UHGV virus genome: UHGV-1966322
Direction: 5' to 3' (one strand)
Length of the DNA stretch: 22,339 bases
Source: a virus
Position numbers and translations under genes: made by a program. Positions 3,798 to 20,921 of this stretch are shown one piece after another. How positions within the stretch are numbered: the first letter of the stretch is position 1; the number at the start of each line of letters is the position of its first letter. Below the pieces are notes generated by a model. That model was not told the origin of the DNA. It made no database searches and saw nothing but the letters and a program-made list of their open reading frames with translations.

Positions 3798-4047
3798 TGC
3801 GCCGATCCTCCCGTTCTTTCCAGCGGAAATACCAGTTCACTGCACAGGTGATTACCGTGCATGCGATACCGACAATAATTGCCCAGTCGCTCAGGCTTAA
3901 CCCTGCAATTCTGTCGGCCAACATCCAGGACACCTCTTTTGCTGTTTTTGCTGTTTCGGCATATGCCTTCGCTGATACACCGCAGCCGGTCAGCGTGGTG
4001 CCTGTTCCATATGAAAGTCTGCTATAAATGGTGCTCATTCTGGTCAT
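3769..4047 (-). CDS. S: Holin (92 aa) with dual-start motif
   Basis: First gene of the lysis cassette, overlapping the endolysin start; N-terminus MTRM gives two in-frame Met starts separated by a basic residue, as in holin/antiholin pairs; hydrophobic segment WAIIVGIACTVITCAVNWYF; Shine-Dalgarno GGAGGTGAGG upstream. Confidence 0.75.
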   Translation of the reverse strand: MTRMSTIYSRLSYGTGTTLTGCGVSAKAYAETAKTAKEVSWMLADRIAGLSLSDWAIIVGIACTVITCAVNWYFRWKEREDRRNGYVSKAEE

Positions 4048-14696: not shown

Positions 14697-15482
14697 ATGA
14701 GTACAGCACTCGCAACGCTGGCTGGGAAGCTGGCTGAACGCGTCGGCATGGATTCTGTCGACCCACAGGAACTGATCACCACTCTTCGCCAGACGGCATT
14801 TAAAGGTGATGCCAGCGATGCGCAGTTCATCGCATTGCTGATCGTCGCCAACCAGTACGGCCTTAATCCGTGGACGAAAGAAATTTACGCCTTCCCTGAC
14901 AAGCAGAACGGCATCGTTCCGGTGGTGGGCGTTGATGGCTGGTCCCGTATCATCAATGAAAACCAGCAGTTTGATGGCATGGACTTTGAGCAGGACAATG
15001 AATCCTGCACATGCCGGATTTACCGCAAAGACCGCAATCATCCGATCTGCGTTACCGAGTGGATGGATGAATGCCGCCGCGAACCATTCAAAACCCGCGA
15101 AGGCAGAGAAATCACGGGGCCGTGGCAGTCGCATCCCAAACGGATGTTACGGCATAAAGCCATGATTCAGTGTGCCCGTCTCGCCTTCGGATTTGCTGGT
15201 ATCTATGACAAGGATGAAGCCGAGCGCATTGTCGAAAATACCGCATACACTGCAGAACGTCAGCCGGAACGCGACATCACTCCGGTTAACGATGAAACCA
15301 TGCAGGAGATTAACACTCTGCTGATTGCCCTGGATAAAACATGGGATGACGACTTATTGCCGCTCTGTTCCCAGATATTTCGCCGCGACATTCGCGCATC
15401 GTCAGAACTGACACAGGCCGAAGCAGTGAAAGCTCTTGGATTCCTGAAACAGAAAGCCACTGAGCAGAAGGTGGCTGCATGA
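14697..15482 (+). CDS. bet: Bet (261 aa), Red recombinase single-strand annealing protein
   Basis: Translation [72 protein letters not shown]... matches lambda Bet from memory. Confidence 0.95.
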
Positions 15483-16159
15483 CACCGGACATTATCCTGC
15501 AGCGTACCGGAATCGACGTGAGAGCTGTCGAACAGGGGGATGATGCGTGGCACAAATTACGGCTCGGCGTCATCACCGCTTCAGAAGTTCACAATGTGAT
15601 AGCAAAACCCCGCTCCGGAAAAAAGTGGCCTGACATGAAAATGTCCTACTTCCACACCCTGCTGGCTGAGGTTTGCACCGGTGTGGCTCCGGAAGTTAAT
15701 GCTAAGGCGCTGGCATGGGGAAAACAGTACGAGAACGACGCCAGAACTCTGTTTGAATTCACTTCCGGCGTGAATGTTACTGAATCCCCGATCATCTATC
15801 GCGACGAAAGTATGCGTACCGCCTGCTCTCCCGATGGTTTATGCAGTGACGGCAATGGCCTTGAGCTGAAATGCCCGTTTACCTCCCGGGATTTCATGAA
15901 GTTCCGGCTCGGTGGTTTCGAGGCCATAAAGTCGGCTTACATGGCCCAGGTGCAGTACAGCATGTGGGTGACGCGAAAAGATGCCTGGTACTTTGCCAAC
16001 TATGACCCGCGTATGAAGCGTGAAGGCCTGCATTATGTCGTGGTTGAGCGGGATGAAAAGTACATGGCGAGTTTTGACGAGATGGTGCCGGAGTTCATCG
16101 AAAAAATGGACGAGGCACTGGCTGAAATTGGTTTTGTATTTGGGGAGCAATGGCGATGA
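15479..16159 (+). CDS. exo: Exo (226 aa), Red 5'-3' exonuclease
   Basis: Translation [92 protein letters not shown]... matches lambda Exo from memory; ATGA overlap with bet. Confidence 0.95.
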
Positions 16160-16338: not shown

Positions 16339-16502
16339 GAACGTGTATCGAGATGGCACATAGCCTCGCTCAAATTGGAGTCAGGTTTGTGCCAATACCA
16401 GTAGAAACAGACGAAGAATTTCATACGTTAGCCGCATCCCTTTCACAAAAGCTGGAAATGATGGTGGCGAAAGCAGAAGCAGATGAGAGAGACCAGGTAT
16501 GA
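16311..16502 (+). CDS. Small hypothetical protein (63 aa), lambda orf63-like
   Basis: 63-codon ORF overlapping the preceding small ORF, in the same arrangement as lambda orf63. Confidence 0.55.
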   Translation: MHKASPVELRTCIEMAHSLAQIGVRFVPIPVETDEEFHTLAASLSQKLEMMVAKAEADERDQV

Positions 16503-16578
16503 CAACCACTGAATGCATTTTTCTGGCAGCGGGCTTCATATTCTGTGTGCTTATGCTTGCCGACATGGGGCTTGTTCA

Positions 16579-16794
16579 ATGACACCTCAGCAAGAAAACG
16601 CCCTTCGCAGCATTGCCCGTCAGGCTAATTCTGAAATCAAAAAAGCCAGACAGCAGTTTCCGGATAAAAACGTCGATGACATTTGCCGTAGCGTACTGAA
16701 GAAGCACCGCGAAACGGTAACGCTGATGGGATTCACACCGACTCATTTAAGCCTGGCAATCGGCATGTTAAACGGCGTCTTTAAGGAACGATGA
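16579..16794 (+). CDS. Hypothetical protein (71 aa from ATG; the ORF-track frame begins at 16513)
   Basis: ORF MTPQQENALRSIARQANSEIKKARQQFPDKNVDDICRSVLKKHRETVTLMGFTPTHLSLAIGMLNGVFKER co-oriented with the pL operon; no family recognised. Confidence 0.5.
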   Translation: MTPQQENALRSIARQANSEIKKARQQFPDKNVDDICRSVLKKHRETVTLMGFTPTHLSLAIGMLNGVFKER

Positions 16795-16892
16795 ACATGA
16801 AAAGCAAAATTATCAGGGAGCTACAGGCTCCTTTTTTATTGCTCGCATTTACCCCCAAGCGTATTAACCAACAATTCAGGGATTAATGGAAG

Positions 16893-17114
16893 ATGGCAGA
16901 CATCATTGATTCAGCATCAGAAATTGAAGAATTACAGCGCAACACAGCAATAAAAATGCGCCGCCTGAACCACCAGGCTGTATCTGCCACTCATTGTTGT
17001 GAGTGTGGCGATCCCATAGATGAGCTAAGACGCCTGGCCGTTCAGGGTTGTCGGACTTGTGCAAGTTGCCAGGAAGATCTGGAGCTTATCAGTAAACAGA
17101 GAGGTTCGAAGTGA
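16893..17114 (+). CDS. TraR/DksA-family C4-type zinc-finger protein (73 aa)
   Basis: CxxC-N17-CxxC arrangement (CCECGDPIDELRRLAVQGCRTCASC) typical of phage TraR-like zinc-finger proteins. Confidence 0.6.
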   Translation: MADIIDSASEIEELQRNTAIKMRRLNHQAVSATHCCECGDPIDELRRLAVQGCRTCASCQEDLELISKQRGSK

Positions 17115-17362
17115 GCGTAATTCACTCTCAGGCACTGCGTGAAGCGGCAGAGCAGGCAATGCCTGACAACTGGGGATTTGACGCGGACCTTTTCCATGAG
17201 CTGGTAACACCATCGATTGTGCTGACACTGCTGGATGAACGGGAAAGAAACCAGCAATACATCAAACGCCGCGACCAGGAGAACGAGGATATTGCGCTAA
17301 CGGTGGGGAAACTGCGTGTTGAGCTGGAGACAGCAAAAATCAAAACTCAACGAGCAGCGTGA
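17111..17362 (+). CDS. Hypothetical protein (83 aa), possibly the N-terminal part of a longer protein interrupted by an in-frame TGA
   Basis: GTG start overlapping the upstream stop (GTGA); coiled-coil-like C-terminus; the same frame stays open after the TGA for 53 more codons to 17524 with no start codon/Shine-Dalgarno of its own. Confidence 0.5.
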   Translation: MSVIHSQALREAAEQAMPDNWGFDADLFHELVTPSIVLTLLDERERNQQYIKRRDQENEDIALTVGKLRVELETAKIKTQRAA

Positions 17363-17660
17363 GTAGAAGGTGTTATCTCGGATGGAAGTAAGCGTATTGC
17401 TGAACTGGAGGCCTGGGTTGAATACACAAGAGCTGCATACGTAAGAGCAAAAGACAAGGGAGATTTGATCAGAGTTATTACCCGCCAACCAACGGGATTT
17501 TACGCTTACGTACCATGTAATTAGGAATCCTTGAAGTGGCAGCCTAACTGCGGATACACTGAAATGGCGATTTGGTAACATGTTTCGCACAAGGCTGTTA
17601 CTACACTTAGAGATAATCAGCCATGATTAAACGCTTTGTAAAAAGTAAAAGGAAATTACA

Positions 17661-18275
17661 ATGAAAAAATCAATACTAATTTTAGGGCTTACGTTAATTG
17701 TCTCATCTCAAATACCATCGGCAATGGCAAAAAATGAATCAAAACTATGGGTTGTTGTTGATCAAACGGAAAGACATACCTGCCCTTCAAGTAAATGTGG
17801 AGTGGCTGGGAAACTATTTTTCAGGGAAGGCGTAGATTTTCTAGAAAAAAAAGGTGAATGGGTTCGTATAACTGAGCCATATTCAGCCTCATGTGTTGGA
17901 GGGGAAAGCGAATATATTAAAGAAGGTAATAAATCCTGCACAAGAAAAAATGGAATCGTTAATGGCAAGTTTTCAGAATGGGTTAAACTTAGTGATCTTA
18001 GCAGTGAAAGGCCATCAGATCCTGCTGAAAATGCGAGCGGAGATGATACTTTAATCAAAGGATCTGATGACTACCGTATATACAAAAAAGAGTTTTCTTC
18101 GGCAGCTAGGAAGTTAATAAATGAAGGGGTCTGCACGGAAAGCGATTTTAAGGAAATCGGAGGGTGGATGGCATCAAGCAATAAGGGTGAAAACATCTAT
18201 TTCACATATTGCGGAGGAATGACGTTGTCGAACAGAATATACCTAGATGTTAAAAGTGGAAAGACTTTTAGATAA
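17661..18275 (+). CDS. Secreted/periplasmic protein of unknown function (204 aa), AT-rich moron
   Basis: Shine-Dalgarno aaggaaa before the ATG; signal peptide MKKSILILGLTLIVSSQIPSAMA; Cys-containing mature region; visibly AT-rich; intrinsic terminator downstream. Confidence 0.7.
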   Translation: MKKSILILGLTLIVSSQIPSAMAKNESKLWVVVDQTERHTCPSSKCGVAGKLFFREGVDFLEKKGEWVRITEPYSASCVGGESEYIKEGNKSCTRKNGIVNGKFSEWVKLSDLSSERPSDPAENASGDDTLIKGSDDYRIYKKEFSSAARKLINEGVCTESDFKEIGGWMASSNKGENIYFTYCGGMTLSNRIYLDVKSGKTFR

Positions 18276-18345
18276 TATGATATTACCAATGACAGTATTG
18301 ATTTAATGCCTCCATAGAATTATCTCTAGGAAGTAGGTATAAGAA

Positions 18346-18383
18346 AAGCCCGCACAATGAGCTGCTGCGGGCTTTGTGTTATT
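18346..18383 (+). terminator. Intrinsic terminator downstream of the secreted-protein moron
   Basis: aagcccgca...tgcgggctt 9-bp perfect stem followed by tgtgttatt. Confidence 0.6.
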
Positions 18384-18428
18384 CGCCATATTTTATGAAG
18401 CAAATACGACACTATAGATAATTAAGCG

Positions 18429-18530
18429 TTGCTGGTTGTCGATTCCTCAATCACTCCTGTTGATGGCTCTCTTCTTGTATGTGCCATTGAAGGGGAATAT
18501 CGCGTAAAAAGATACCGGAAGTATCCGCGC
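18429..18530 (+). pseudogene. Fragment resembling the C-terminal part of an S24 peptidase (UmuD/LexA/phage-repressor type), lacking the N-terminal catalytic-Ser region
   Basis: Frame reads LLVVDSSITPVDGSLLVCAIEGEYRVKRY, resembling the UmuD segment [29 protein letters not shown]; no start codon or upstream catalytic region; similarity judged by eye. Confidence 0.35.
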
Positions 18531-18568
18531 CGCCATGATTGTCTTTCTCCTGATGCAGGAAAAGCAGA

Positions 18569-18907
18569 ATGGCTAAATCAGCAACAGAGCACAAAGCCGA
18601 TCAGAGAGCCAAGCAAGCATCATCCGGTATGCGTAAGCTGGAGCTTGTACTTGATGCTCAGGAAATTGAAATGCTGGAGCGTAACTGTGCCACGCGTCGC
18701 TTCAGGCGTGCGCCTTGCGAGTTTGGTGAGTACATCGCGTTACTGAGCCGCCAGGATGATGCACGTGTGCGCTGGCGTATAAAATCGATCAGCAGAAAAC
18801 GGTGCGGTAAGTGCGGCGAGAGAGTTCCTGTTAATTCATGCCCGTGTAATGGTGACTCACAATGCTGGGTGACCAAAGGCTGGCACGAAACAAAATTAAT
18901 GATATAA
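18569..18907 (+). CDS. Hypothetical protein (112 aa) with C-terminal Cys-rich zinc-ribbon-like motif
   Basis: ATG preceded by aggaaa; C-terminal CGKCGERVPVNSCPCNGDSQC; no family recognised. Confidence 0.5.
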   Translation: MAKSATEHKADQRAKQASSGMRKLELVLDAQEIEMLERNCATRRFRRAPCEFGEYIALLSRQDDARVRWRIKSISRKRCGKCGERVPVNSCPCNGDSQCWVTKGWHETKLMI

Positions 18908-18935
18908 ATCTCTGTGACATGTCACGGAGGCGGCA

Positions 18936-19364
18936 ATGAAATTAGACCAGCAATATCTAAAAGATCTACTTATCGCATTCGAAAAAACTCGTGGCCCTGA
19001 CACGATGCTTAGTGAACTAGAGGATAATGGCTTTAATAGATATGACCAAGATTTTATTTTCCATATGCGATTATTATGTGACTACGAATTAATAGTCAGG
19101 GTTGATGGAAAACCTGGGTTCGGTCATATATTGTCCAAAGCGTTAGGGGAAGGTGTTGGATATAGTTGGATCGAAGTACCACTGAGGTTGACAGCAAGAG
19201 GGCATGATTTTATTGCTGACTTACGTCAAAAGGATGTCTGGCAAGCTATAAAAACAAACTTTAAGGATGAGGGAATTAGTACACTTATGAGTGTTTCAAA
19301 ATCACTAGCAAAAGGCTTTGCAAGGAAAAAGATAAAAGATATTACAGGAATAGATATTGAATAA
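18936..19364 (+). CDS. Hypothetical protein (142 aa), AT-rich moron
   Basis: Strong Shine-Dalgarno ggagg before the ATG; AT-rich coding sequence; followed by an intrinsic terminator; no family recognised. Confidence 0.65.
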   Translation: MKLDQQYLKDLLIAFEKTRGPDTMLSELEDNGFNRYDQDFIFHMRLLCDYELIVRVDGKPGFGHILSKALGEGVGYSWIEVPLRLTARGHDFIADLRQKDVWQAIKTNFKDEGISTLMSVSKSLAKGFARKKIKDITGIDIE

Positions 19365-19409
19365 TTCTTAGCATCAAGCAACTACTGCCTTTGGTGGAAA
19401 TTATATCTG

Positions 19410-19436
19410 AACTCGCTACGGCGAGTTTTGTTTTAT
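19410..19436 (+). terminator. Intrinsic terminator after the 142-aa gene
   Basis: aactcgc-tacg-gcgagtt hairpin (7-bp stem) followed by ttgttttat. Confidence 0.55.
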
Positions 19437-19447
19437 GGAGATGATAA

Positions 19448-19615
19448 ATGCACTTCCGAGTCACAGGTGAATGGAATGGAGAGCCATTCAACAGGGTTAT
19501 CGAAGCAGAGAACATCAACGACTGTTATAACCACTGGATGATATGGGCGCAGATAGCACATGCAGACGTAACCAATATTCGAATTGAAGAACTGAAAGAA
19601 CACCAAGCCGCCTGA
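19448..19615 (+). CDS. Small protein (55 aa) upstream of xis, lambda orf55-like
   Basis: Manual translation MHFRVTGEWNGEPFNRVIEAENINDCYNHWMIWAQIAHADVTNIRIEELKEHQAA; Shine-Dalgarno ggag upstream; recalled as a conserved small lambda ORF. Confidence 0.6.
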   Translation: MHFRVTGEWNGEPFNRVIEAENINDCYNHWMIWAQIAHADVTNIRIEELKEHQAA

Positions 19616-19630
19616 TGGCGGTTTTTTCTT
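19606..19630 (+). terminator. Hairpin plus T-tract just upstream of xis; candidate N-sensitive intrinsic terminator
   Basis: ccgcc-tgat-ggcgg hairpin followed by ttttttcttg; overlaps the stop of the 55-aa ORF. Confidence 0.5.
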
Positions 19631-19654
19631 GCGTGTAATTGCGGAGACTTTGCG

Positions 19655-19873
19655 ATGTACTTGACACTTCAGGAGTGGAACGCACGCCAGCGACGCCCAA
19701 GAAGCCTTGAAACAGTTCGTCGATGGGTACGCGAGTGCAGGATATTCCCTCCTCCGGTTAAGGATGGAAGAGAGTATCTGTTCCACGAATCAGCGGTAAA
19801 GGTTGACTTAAATCGACCAGTAACAGGTAGCCTTTTGAAGAGGATCAGAAATGGGAAGAAGGCGAAGTCATGA
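19655..19873 (+). CDS. xis: Excisionase Xis (72 aa)
   Basis: Translation MYLTLQEWNARQRRPRSLETVRRWVRECRIFPPPVKDGREYLFHESAVKVDLNRPVTGSLLKRIRNGKKAKS matches lambda Xis from memory. Confidence 0.95.
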   Translation: MYLTLQEWNARQRRPRSLETVRRWVRECRIFPPPVKDGREYLFHESAVKVDLNRPVTGSLLKRIRNGKKAKS

Positions 19874-20921
19874 GCGCCGGGATTTACCCCCTAACCTTTA
19901 TATAAGAAACAATGGATATTACTGCTACAGGGACCCAAGGACGGGTAAAGAGTTTGGATTAGGCAGAGACAGGCGAATCGCAATCACTGAAGCTATACAG
20001 GCCAACATTGAGTTATTTTCAGGACACAAACACAAGCCTCTGACAGCGAGAATCAACAGTGATAATTCCGTTACGTTACATTCATGGCTTGATCGCTACG
20101 AAAAAATCCTGGCCAGCAGAGGAATCAAGCAGAAGACACTCATAAATTACATGAGCAAAATTAAAGCAATAAGGAGGGGTCTGCCTGATGCTCCACTTGA
20201 AGACATCACCACAAAAGAAATTGCGGCAATGCTCAATGGATACATAGACGAGGGCAAGGCGGCGTCAGCCAAGTTAATCAGATCAACACTGAGCGATGCA
20301 TTCCGAGAGGCAATAGCTGAAGGCCATATAACAACAAACCCTGTCGCTGCCACTCGCGCAGCAAAATCAGAGGTAAGGAGATCAAGACTTACGGCTGACG
20401 AATACCTGAAAATTTATCAAGCAGCAGAATCATCACCATGTTGGCTCAGACTTGCAATGGAACTGGCTGTTGTTACCGGGCAACGAGTTGGTGATTTATG
20501 CGAAATGAAGTGGTCTGATATCGTAGATGGATATCTTTATGTCGAGCAAAGCAAAACAGGCGTAAAAATTGCCATCCCAACAGCATTGCATGTTGATGCT
20601 CTCGGAATATCAATGAAGGAAACACTTGATAAATGCAAAGAGATTCTTGGCGGAGAAACCATAATTGCATCTACTCGTCGCGAACCGCTTTCATCCGGCA
20701 CAGTATCAAGGTATTTTATGCGCGCACGAAAAGCATCAGGTCTTTCCTTCGAAGGGGATCCGCCTACCTTTCACGAGTTGCGCAGTTTGTCTGCAAGACT
20801 CTATGAGAAGCAGATAAGCGATAAGTTTGCTCAACATCTTCTCGGGCATAAGTCGGACACCATGGCATCACAGTATCGTGATGACAGAGGCAGGGAGTGG
20901 GACAAAATTGAAATCAAATAA
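19851..20921 (+). CDS. int: Integrase Int (356 aa), tyrosine recombinase
   Basis: Translation MGRRRSHERRDLPPNLYIRNNGYYCYRDPRTGKEFGLGRDRRIAITEAIQANIELFSGHKHKPLTARINSDNSVTLHSWLDRYEKILASRGIKQKT... matches lambda Int from memory; overlaps xis as in lambda. Confidence 0.95.
   Translation: MGRRRSHERRDLPPNLYIRNNGYYCYRDPRTGKEFGLGRDRRIAITEAIQANIELFSGHKHKPLTARINSDNSVTLHSWLDRYEKILASRGIKQKTLINYMSKIKAIRRGLPDAPLEDITTKEIAAMLNGYIDEGKAASAKLIRSTLSDAFREAIAEGHITTNPVAATRAAKSEVRRSRLTADEYLKIYQAAESSPCWLRLAMELAVVTGQRVGDLCEMKWSDIVDGYLYVEQSKTGVKIAIPTALHVDALGISMKETLDKCKEILGGETIIASTRREPLSSGTVSRYFMRARKASGLSFEGDPPTFHELRSLSARLYEKQISDKFAQHLLGHKSDTMASQYRDDRGREWDKIEIK

What the first reader, a model, noticed from the sequence alone, without database searches (positions are those of the whole stretch)
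17525..18385. Terminator-bounded AT-rich moron encoding a secreted Cys-containing protein
The 204-aa ORF (17661-18275) has a strong Shine-Dalgarno sequence, a classic signal peptide ending AMA, and is followed by a 9-bp-stem intrinsic terminator (18346-18383). A plausible promoter lies upstream (TTGAAG, 18-nt spacer, TACACT near 17530-17560). The DNA is visibly AT-rich compared with the lambda-like genes on either side. This is the typical architecture of an independently transcribed phage moron; the product is an exported protein of unknown function.
Basis: partly seen in the sequence, partly recalled or inferred. Interest (0 to 1): 0.5.

Follow-up and report, generated by a model that had tools for sequence, protein, structure and literature searches.

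The report
Prophage accessory gene for exported SH3b protein
A lambda-like prophage carries a small, AT-rich, self-contained add-on gene for an exported two-domain protein that probably binds the cell wall; this is an ordinary kind of phage accessory gene ("moron"), and what the protein does is still unknown.

Summary
The 204-codon ORF at 17661-18275, its AAGGA ribosome site, the signal peptide ending AMA, six cysteines, the low GC (38% against 48-49% in the flanks) and a 10-bp-stem hairpin with a T-rich tail (18345-18383) are all present. There is no terminator on the 5' side. The proposed promoter matches the consensus at only 8 of 12 positions, which chance alone would give.

The unit lies between exo and xis of a lambdoid prophage integrated next to ybhC, and is 100% identical to phage Chlobot. 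Its borders are gene remnants: a disrupted Ea22-like gene and a humD fragment. The same 5' region plus ORF recurs next to humD in P1-like phage-plasmids. More distant homologues sit on a 5.3-kb plasmid, in Pseudomonas integrase islets and in an Aeromonas prophage.

Verdict: a genuine moron and a new member of a known kind. One oddity is that family members repeatedly sit beside umuD/humD/umuC genes.

The parts
17516..17660 (+). 5' regulatory region and leader of the cassette. Homology with the P1-like phage-plasmid copy starts here.
   Evidence: 81% identical to the E. fergusonii P1-like copy, whereas the 100 nt before it are 49% identical, which is the unrelated baseline. No Rfam match. The leader fold is not unusual, z -1.4.
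17531..17560 (+). Putative sigma-70 promoter: -35 TTGAAG (17531-17536), 18-nt spacer, -10 TACACT (17555-17560).
   Evidence: 8 of 12 match to consensus; 1.4 such sites per kb; not called by the scanner. Both hexamers are invariant in the 81%-identical orthologous leader, while 5 of 18 spacer bases differ. That is weak support: about 0.08 by chance.
17649..17653 (+). Shine-Dalgarno sequence AAGGA, 7 nt before the ATG.
   Evidence: Read directly from the sequence. Conserved in all aligned copies.
17661..18275 (+). ORF of 204 aa: precursor of an exported two-domain protein (PHROG 8310; RefSeq WP_024207669, 'hypothetical protein').
   Evidence: Under purifying selection: 56 synonymous against 23 non-synonymous codon differences from the P1-like allele. 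AlphaFold mean pLDDT 90.5.
17661..17729 (+). Signal peptide, residues 1-23, with predicted signal peptidase I cleavage after AMA.
   Evidence: n-h-c layout with A-x-A. pLDDT is below 70 only here. Homologues have an equivalent leader, a lipobox or a TM anchor.
17739..17990 (+). SH3b-type beta domain, residues about 27-110, with a Cys-rich insertion (C41/C46 and C78/C93).
18033..18272 (+). C-terminal alpha/beta domain, residues about 125-204: two helices and a three-stranded sheet, with conserved motifs SDDY, GGW and YFTYCGG and the pair C158/C184. Not recognised by any library.
18345..18383 (+). Intrinsic terminator: stem AAAGCCCGCA / TGCGGGCTTT, 11-nt loop, T-rich tail.
   Evidence: The P1-like copy has a canonical terminator (17-nt arms, T7 tract) at the same relative position, sharing AAAGCCCGCA.
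17111..17521 (+). Left junction: disrupted Ea22-like gene. 83 codons, an in-frame TGA at 17360-17362, then 52 more codons.
   Evidence: PGAP labels it 'frameshifted; incomplete'. Its 3' part resembles a 210-aa gene that lies upstream of humD on a 108-kb E. coli plasmid and also matches 108-kb phage records.
18429..18535 (+). Right junction: internal fragment of a humD/umuD' (S24 peptidase) gene, lacking its 5' end.
   Evidence: A 37-aa fragment, 89% identical to residues 46-82 of HumD from that 108-kb plasmid. PGAP pseudogene 'DNA repair protein'.

Best explanation
This is a self-contained accessory cassette (a moron) of about 870 bp, 17516-18385. It sits in the variable exo-xis stretch of a lambdoid prophage integrated next to ybhC. 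It consists of a conserved 145-nt leader/promoter region, one ORF and an intrinsic terminator.

Shown here:
- The unit differs in composition from its surroundings.
- Both borders are remnants of other genes.
- It is present in only about 2% of complete E. coli genomes.
- The same unit recurs in P1-like phage-plasmids.
- Homologues are single-gene cargo of plasmids, integrase islets and other prophages.
- The protein has a cleavable Sec-type leader, an SH3b-fold domain, an unclassified alpha/beta domain and six conserved cysteines, and no enzymatic domain.

Inferred:
- The precursor is exported by Sec and cleaved after AMA (residue 23).
- It is oxidised to three disulfides: 41-46, 78-93 and 158-184. 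One homologue has lost the first two pairs together.
- It stays in the periplasm as a soluble 20-kDa protein.
- In the lysogen it is transcribed from its own weak sigma-70 promoter and stopped by its terminator. After induction it is also read as part of the N-antiterminated pL transcript, which ignores that terminator.

Most likely role, with low confidence (about 0.25). SH3b domains in other bacterial proteins bind peptidoglycan or other wall polymers. On that basis the protein would dock on the cell wall or an envelope component. The C-terminal domain would then alter or shield the wall, giving the host an envelope phenotype such as protection from incoming wall-degrading agents (phage tail lysins, lysozymes, secreted amidases) or exclusion of superinfecting phage.
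For: Anatomy.

Genomic setting: the order exo, DksA-like, Ea22-like, cassette, humD fragment, xis, int, ybhC is identical to phage Chlobot and to many E. coli prophages.

Variable slot with alternative cargo, including another periplasmic protein (LprI).

Junction remnants.

Cassette re-used after humD in P1-like phage-plasmids. The leader is 81% identical and the ORF 85.5%. The 3' UTR is unrelated, but a terminator is retained.

Other mobile contexts: a 5.3-kb ColRNAI-type plasmid, Pseudomonas integrase islets, and an Aeromonas prophage between the antiterminator and holin genes.

No conserved neighbour in 80+ loci, so it acts as a single gene.

Fold. SH3_3 across the family.

Architectures are always extracytoplasmic: signal peptide, lipobox, or Zn-ribbon plus TM, sometimes with extra SH3b copies.

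Purifying selection.
Against: - The promoter is weak by consensus (8 of 12) and unremarkable statistically. No expression data exist.
- The gene has the same orientation as the pL operon, so pL alone could serve it.
- The functional guess rests on what SH3b domains bind in other proteins (background knowledge) and on the mobile context.
- There is no match in PADLOC or NCBIfam, and no matching viral fold.
- Some family members are ordinary chromosomal genes, so the ancestral role need not concern phages.
Confidence: 0.8

Rival explanations
1. It is an ordinary delayed-early gene of the pL operon. Like other exo-xis genes, it would be transcribed only after induction or infection and would act during phage development, not in the lysogen. 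It would have no promoter of its own.
For: It has the same strand and position as the pL-driven exo-xis genes. Published work shows that exo-xis genes are expressed early and influence the lysis-lysogeny decision (PMC4195576, PMC3824215, PMC7093339). The promoter candidate matches only 8 of 12 positions.
Against: The leader plus ORF works as a unit outside any pL operon: after humD in P1-like plasmids, on a small plasmid, and in integrase islets. The leader is conserved well above the neutral 3' UTR, 81% against 49%. A terminator directly follows the gene. An exported protein is an unlikely regulator of the cytoplasmic lysis-lysogeny switch.
Confidence: 0.15
2. It is an SOS-coupled envelope factor. 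The family would be functionally tied to the umuDC/humD damage-response module and switched on together with it. That could happen through LexA-controlled operons, read-through from humD, or prophage induction via pL. It would adjust the cell wall during DNA-damage stress.
For: Family members lie next to umuD/humD/umuC in at least six lineages.
- Here, a humD fragment directly follows the cassette.
- In P1-like plasmids, the gene directly follows an intact humD.
- In L023/L024, it lies between umuD and umuC on the same strand, with gaps of 44 and 9 nt. A GTTC-N7-GTTC motif lies at about 4023-4037, around the called umuD start. From background knowledge this is the alphaproteobacterial LexA box.
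- In L066 and L088, it lies just downstream of umuDC remnants on the same strand.
- In L144, umuDC is 2.2 kb away on the opposite strand.
Against: About 90% of the 100-odd loci examined have no umuDC nearby, and no neighbour is conserved family-wide. umuDC-like genes are themselves common cargo of mobile elements, so a shared neighbourhood could explain the link; no matched control was possible. The cassette leader has no credible LexA box: CTGT-N8-TTAG lacks the near-invariant CAG (read).
Confidence: 0.12
3. It is a lysis or virion accessory: a wall-binding SH3b module of the kind found in endolysins, acting with the phage lysis system or tail.
For: The closest solved folds are SH3b wall-binding domains of phage lysins, lysostaphin and NlpC/P60 enzymes.
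Against: It has no catalytic domain. It is encoded in the early-left region, far from the lysis and tail genes. tblastn finds it in only 1 of 50,697 phage records. It also occurs on plasmids, in islets and in chromosomes without any phage. The PHROG family has no assigned function.
Confidence: 0.03

Closest known systems
Lambdoid phage morons (for example lambda bor and lom, HK97 gp15, phi80 cor)
   Same: A single gene added to a conserved phage backbone. It differs in composition, has its own terminator and a putative promoter of its own, varies in presence among relatives, and encodes an envelope-located product. (The properties of the named morons come from background knowledge.)
   Different: No sequence or fold relationship to any of them. 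It sits in the exo-xis stretch of the pL operon rather than in the late or tail region. Expression from the prophage and any phenotype are untested.
Bacterial SH3 (SH3b) cell-wall-binding domains (Pfam SH3_3; lysostaphin, phage endolysins, NlpC/P60 peptidases)
   Different: It is not attached to any hydrolase domain. It carries a disulfide-rich insertion. It is always paired with an unclassified C-terminal domain. Its ligand is unknown.
Periplasmic phage-encoded exclusion or protection proteins (T4 Spackle, P1 Sim) and periplasmic lysozyme inhibitors (Ivy, MliC/PliC, LprI)
   Same: Small Sec-exported soluble proteins carried as single genes by phages and mobile elements. An LprI-family gene occupies the same exo-xis slot in a related prophage.
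   Different: No detectable sequence similarity: tblastn against 50,697 phage genomes finds only Chlobot. No fold match either. The analogy is by location and context only.
exo-xis region genes of lambda and Stx phages (orf60a, orf63, orf61, orf73, ea22, ea8.5)
   Same: Same genomic interval and same transcriptional orientation. The cassette replaces part of an Ea22-like gene (PMC7093339, PMC8614690).
   Different: Nothing suggests that those gene products are exported; some of them influence the lysis-lysogeny decision. This one is an exported protein of foreign composition.

Membership tests
Phage moron | A gene absent from closely related phages, which have an otherwise collinear backbone. 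| tested here: met
   129 of 5426 complete E. coli genomes carry it. 4309 match some part of the surrounding 3.2-kb exo-xis stretch, and sampled prophages hold other cargo or none in the slot.
Phage moron | Nucleotide composition different from the flanking phage genes. | tested here: met
   GC 0.381 against 0.494 and 0.484 in the flanks; 4.4th percentile of same-size windows.
Phage moron | Its own transcription terminator. | tested here: met
   A 10-bp stem with a T-rich tail at 18345-18383, z -3.85. A terminator is retained in the P1-like copy. Activity was not measured.
Phage moron | Its own promoter, active in the lysogen. | tested here: inconclusive
   TTGAAG-18-TACACT matches 8 of 12 positions and is not above chance. 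The leader is conserved (81%) and both hexamers are invariant in the orthologue. No expression data.
Phage moron | Dispensable for lytic growth; benefits the lysogen. | not testable with these tools
   Needs a deletion lysogen and phenotype assays.
SH3b (Pfam SH3_3) domain proteins | SH3-like beta-barrel fold. | tested here: met
SH3b (Pfam SH3_3) domain proteins | Profile match above the Pfam gathering score. | tested here: inconclusive
   This protein scores 16.2 bits against a cut-off of 27. 37 of 41 homologues match at E up to 0.1, best 5.9e-8. One distant relative reaches 34.3 bits.
SH3b (Pfam SH3_3) domain proteins | Binding of peptidoglycan or another wall polymer. | not testable with these tools
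   Needs sacculus or muropeptide binding assays.
Sec-exported periplasmic protein | N-terminal signal peptide with a signal peptidase I site and no lipobox cysteine. | tested here: met
   MKK plus an 11-residue hydrophobic core plus AMA, then K. The first Cys is at residue 41. The Pfam LPAM_1 lipoprotein-site match is below threshold. SignalP was not run.
Known anti-phage defence systems (PADLOC) | Match to a defence-protein profile. | tested here: not met
   0 families at E up to 1.
Phage lysis or virion components | A catalytic or structural domain, and location in the late operon. | tested here: not met
   No catalytic domain. The gene lies between exo and xis. PHROG 8310 has unknown function.

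The most novel reading that the evidence does not exclude
The family may be a previously unrecognised single-gene periplasmic module: one or more SH3b domains plus a new alpha/beta domain. Mobile elements would spread it because it changes how the cell wall meets outside attack or DNA-damage stress. Its repeated same-strand placement beside or inside umuD/humD/umuC units includes a umuD-X-umuC operon with a GTTC-N7-GTTC motif that resembles an SOS box. This would reflect real co-regulation of an exported wall-binding protein with the SOS mutagenesis genes.
Probability: 0.12. Interest if true: 0.65.

Novelty: new member of a known kind. Interest (0 to 1): 0.33.

Why it matters
It adds a clean, well-delimited example of a moron in the little-studied exo-xis stretch of lambdoid phages. 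It also shows that this slot swaps periplasmic cargo: this gene in some prophages, an LprI lysozyme inhibitor in another. The protein belongs to a large, widespread and wholly uncharacterised extracytoplasmic family with a confident structure model, whose C-terminal domain is in no domain library. The gene moves as single cargo on phages, phage-plasmids, small plasmids and islets across Gammaproteobacteria, so it very likely confers a selectable envelope phenotype that could be found with simple assays. As it stands, this is a routine 'hypothetical exported protein' moron, not a new kind of system.

Tried and rejected
Searches that found nothing:
- NCBIfam, PADLOC and a PDB sequence search returned nothing useful.
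- A family-profile search of PDB hit only de novo designed TIM barrels, through summed weak matches to one helix. I judged these spurious.
- The Foldseek AFDB50 library was not available. The BFVD viral library gave only partial SH3b matches, all with E above 0.01.
- Rfam found nothing in 17300-18500. The leader fold is not unusual, z -1.4.
- No paper mentions Chlobot, WP_024207669 or an SH3b periplasmic moron.

Ideas tested and dropped:
- All-against-all clustering of ORFs within about 5 kb in 80+ loci found no conserved partner. The only recurrences were within-genus synteny, GGDEF proteins, ABC ATPases and transposases.
- LexA box in the leader: CTGT-N8-TTAG lacks the CAG half-site, so I rejected it.
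- Alternative -10 element GATAAT (17612-17617): it has no acceptable -35 at 16-19 nt in this window.
- The motif TAGAGATAAT occurs only three times in the window (17608 +, 18319 -, 18413 + with one mismatch), bracketing the ORF and the terminator. The corresponding inverted repeat is not conserved in the P1-like copy. I left it as an unexplained detail.
- Large IncA and other plasmids carrying the gene at 99.9% identity: at least the one examined carries a captured fragment of this prophage's exo-xis region, not an independent cassette.

Full report
**Setting.** The window is the left arm of a lambdoid prophage with its early-left (pL) operon on the + strand. The gene order is gam, bet, exo (15479-16159), small exo-xis ORFs, a DksA/TraR-like gene (16893-17114), an Ea22-like gene, the feature itself, then xis (19655-19873) and int (19851-20921). 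The host gene ybhC follows from 21056. The stretch 17400-18500 is 100% identical to Escherichia phage Chlobot and to prophages in many E. coli genomes. There the ORF is annotated only as 'hypothetical protein'.

**Check of the observation.**
- The ORF is 17661-18275 and encodes 204 aa.
- AAGGA lies 7 nt before the ATG.
- The N-terminus MKKSILILGLTLIVSSQIPSAMA, followed by KNES, has the n-h-c layout of a signal peptidase I substrate. It is the only part of the protein that AlphaFold models with low confidence.
- The six cysteines are each conserved in at least 90% of 41 homologues.
- A perfect 10-nt inverted repeat (18345-18354 / 18366-18375) is followed by a T-rich tail. The 66-nt context folds at -24.5 kcal/mol, z -3.85, and none of 200 shuffles is as stable. 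The core hairpin folds at -16.9 kcal/mol.
- GC is 0.381 for 17516-18385, against 0.494 and 0.484 for the flanks. Only 4.4% of equal-sized windows are as low.

Two points need correction. There is no terminator on the 5' side; the nearest terminator-like site is 16815-16833. The promoter TTGAAG-18-TACACT (17531-17560) matches only 8 of 12 positions. Sites of that quality occur 1.4 times per kb on this strand.

**Limits of the unit.** The left flank is a disrupted Ea22-like gene. It has 83 codons, an in-frame TGA, then 52 further codons ending at 17519-17521, and PGAP marks it as defective. The right flank (18429-18535) is an internal fragment of a humD/umuD' gene.

Both flanks match a 108-kb E. 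coli plasmid. There an intact 210-aa gene and an intact humD are separated by about 800 bp of other sequence. The left flank also matches 108-kb phage records. The cassette therefore replaced the 3' end of one gene, the spacer, and the 5' end of humD.

An 85%-identical allele of the gene lies in P1-like phage-plasmids, which carry a P7-type C1 repressor, hot and humD. There it sits immediately after an intact humD. Comparison of the window with that copy gives these identities:

| Segment | Identity |
|---|---|
| 100 nt before the boundary | 49% (unrelated baseline) |
| Leader, from about 17516 to the ATG | 81% |
| ORF | 85.5% (56 synonymous, 23 non-synonymous codon differences) |
| 3' UTR | 49% |

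After the unrelated 3' UTR, both copies have a terminator that shares the stem AAAGCCCGCA. The mobile unit is thus leader plus ORF, followed by a terminator.

The two promoter hexamers are invariant between the lineages, while 5 of the 18 spacer bases differ. With 19% divergence, 12 named positions would all be conserved by chance about 8% of the time. This is only mild support. Leader conservation well above that of the 3' UTR is the better argument that the 5' region is functional.

**Distribution.** 129 of 5426 complete E. coli genomes carry the unit. In contrast, 4309 genomes match some part of the surrounding 3.2-kb exo-xis stretch, and sampled prophages hold other cargo in the slot. That cargo includes an LprI-family lysozyme inhibitor, DUF551, ASCH and NinX-like genes and a methyltransferase. 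The lambdoid copies occur with at least two different integrases, 100% and 75% identical.

Only one of 50,697 phage records has a homologue detectable by tblastn. Sixteen plasmids carry the region at 99.8-99.9% identity. The one examined, an IncA plasmid, holds a captured fragment of the prophage's exo-xis region between IS and transposon elements.

Homologues at 57-69% identity occur in four other kinds of place:
- on a 5.3-kb ColRNAI-type plasmid with four annotated genes;
- directly after an integrase in small Pseudomonas islets;
- in an Aeromonas prophage between the antiterminator region and the holin;
- on a Pseudomonas plasmid.

More distant members are chromosomal in Alphaproteobacteria, Vibrio and other groups. 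Clustering all neighbouring ORFs from 80+ loci found no conserved partner, so the gene acts alone.

**The protein.** With a 41-sequence alignment, AlphaFold gives mean pLDDT 90.5 and pTM 0.73.

One divergent homologue (P0081) has lost C41 and C46 together, and C78 and C93 together, but keeps C158 and C184. This fits three disulfides: 41-46, 78-93 and 158-184.

A profile search of 1.8 billion cluster representatives finds 171 at E up to 1e-30. All sampled architectures are extracytoplasmic: signal peptide, lipobox, cytoplasmic Zn-ribbon plus TM anchor, added ankyrin or coiled-coil segments, or two to three SH3b copies before the same C-terminal domain. None has an enzymatic domain. PHROGs lists the family as phrog_8310, function unknown. 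PADLOC has no match.

**How it most likely works.** These parts are shown: a foreign, delimited, single-gene cassette; an exported, disulfide-containing two-domain protein with an SH3b fold; purifying selection; and repeated capture by unrelated mobile elements.

These parts are inferred. The precursor is exported by Sec and cleaved after A23, and the mature protein is a soluble periplasmic 20-kDa species. In the lysogen it is transcribed from the weak TTGAAG/TACACT promoter and terminated at 18345-18383. After induction it is additionally read through from pL under N antitermination.

The role is the least certain part. SH3b domains in other proteins bind peptidoglycan or other wall polymers (background knowledge). 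The gene also travels as lone cargo on phages and plasmids, and a related prophage holds a periplasmic lysozyme inhibitor in the same slot. I therefore favour a wall-docking protein that changes or shields the envelope for the host. That could mean protection against wall-degrading agents or exclusion of superinfecting phage. My confidence in this role is about 0.25. No tool result tests it directly.

**Rivals.**
- A pL-only early gene is possible, given the orientation and the weak promoter. It fits poorly with the unit's use outside any pL operon, the conserved leader, the terminator and the exported product.
- A lysis or virion role is excluded as far as sequence can show.
- An SOS-linked role is a minority reading, prompted by an unexpected pattern. 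Family members sit beside umuD/humD/umuC in at least six lineages. In one lineage the gene lies between umuD and umuC on the same strand, with gaps of 44 and 9 nt. A GTTC-N7-GTTC motif lies around the called umuD start; from background knowledge this is the alphaproteobacterial LexA box. About 90% of the loci lack this link, umuDC is itself common mobile cargo, and the E. coli leader has no credible LexA box. I therefore give this reading about 0.12.

**Comparison and verdict.** The feature works like the classical lambdoid morons and meets every sequence-testable criterion except a demonstrated promoter. Its product is a member of the SH3b fold class joined to an unclassified domain. It is unrelated in sequence and fold to known exclusion proteins or lysozyme inhibitors.

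Noticed in passing
window 18429-18535; L017 2359-3524; L020 3093-4258; L023 4019-6411; L066 3393-5567; L088 1008-2686; L144 2147-6597: Genes of this exported SH3b family lie next to umuD/humD/umuC in at least six independent lineages, usually on the same strand. In one lineage the gene sits between umuD and umuC, and a GTTC-N7-GTTC motif lies around the called umuD start. Most other loci show no such link.
   Followed up: partly
window 17608-17617 (+), 18319-18328 (-), 18413-18422 (+, one mismatch): The motif TAGAGATAAT occurs only three times in the 22-kb window, and all three copies bracket the ORF and its terminator. 1.2 matches are expected in the whole window. The inverted arrangement is not conserved in the P1-like copy of the cassette.
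   Followed up: partly
window 17111-17521: The Ea22-like gene is interrupted by an in-frame TGA at 17360-17362. The frame then stays open for 52 more codons. Their product resembles the C-terminal part of a 210-aa protein encoded upstream of humD on a 108-kb E. coli plasmid. The gene is therefore chimeric and probably inactive.
   Followed up: partly
window 18936-19364: A second AT-rich island (GC 0.364) holds a DUF2513-family gene between the humD fragment and xis. It is probably another accessory gene in the same variable stretch. A terminator-like hairpin follows at 19409-19428.
   Followed up: no
L014 1791-2489 (E. coli E166 prophage, same exo-xis slot): A related prophage carries a 'lysozyme inhibitor LprI family protein' at the position occupied here by the SH3b gene. 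This suggests the slot exchanges periplasmic cargo.
   Followed up: no
hits H11, H12, H37 (E. coli genomes matching window 17400-18500 / 16500-19700): In a few genomes an IS1 element is inserted within this stretch and may split the gene. The exact insertion point was not examined.
   Followed up: no
L018 (Citrobacter freundii IncA plasmid pA18-1) 10975-14165: A fragment of this prophage's exo-xis region, including the SH3b gene at 99.9% identity, is embedded in a resistance plasmid. It lies between a lysis-protein gene and an IS5 element, close to trkG, a tail-fibre assembly gene and arsenic-resistance genes. Sixteen plasmids from four genera (Escherichia, Klebsiella, Enterobacter, Citrobacter) carry the region.
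   Followed up: partly
L015 2719-3516 (108-kb E. coli plasmid): About 800 bp between the 210-aa Ea22-related gene and humD have no annotated gene and no ORF longer than 80 aa. This is the segment that the cassette replaces in the window.
   Followed up: no
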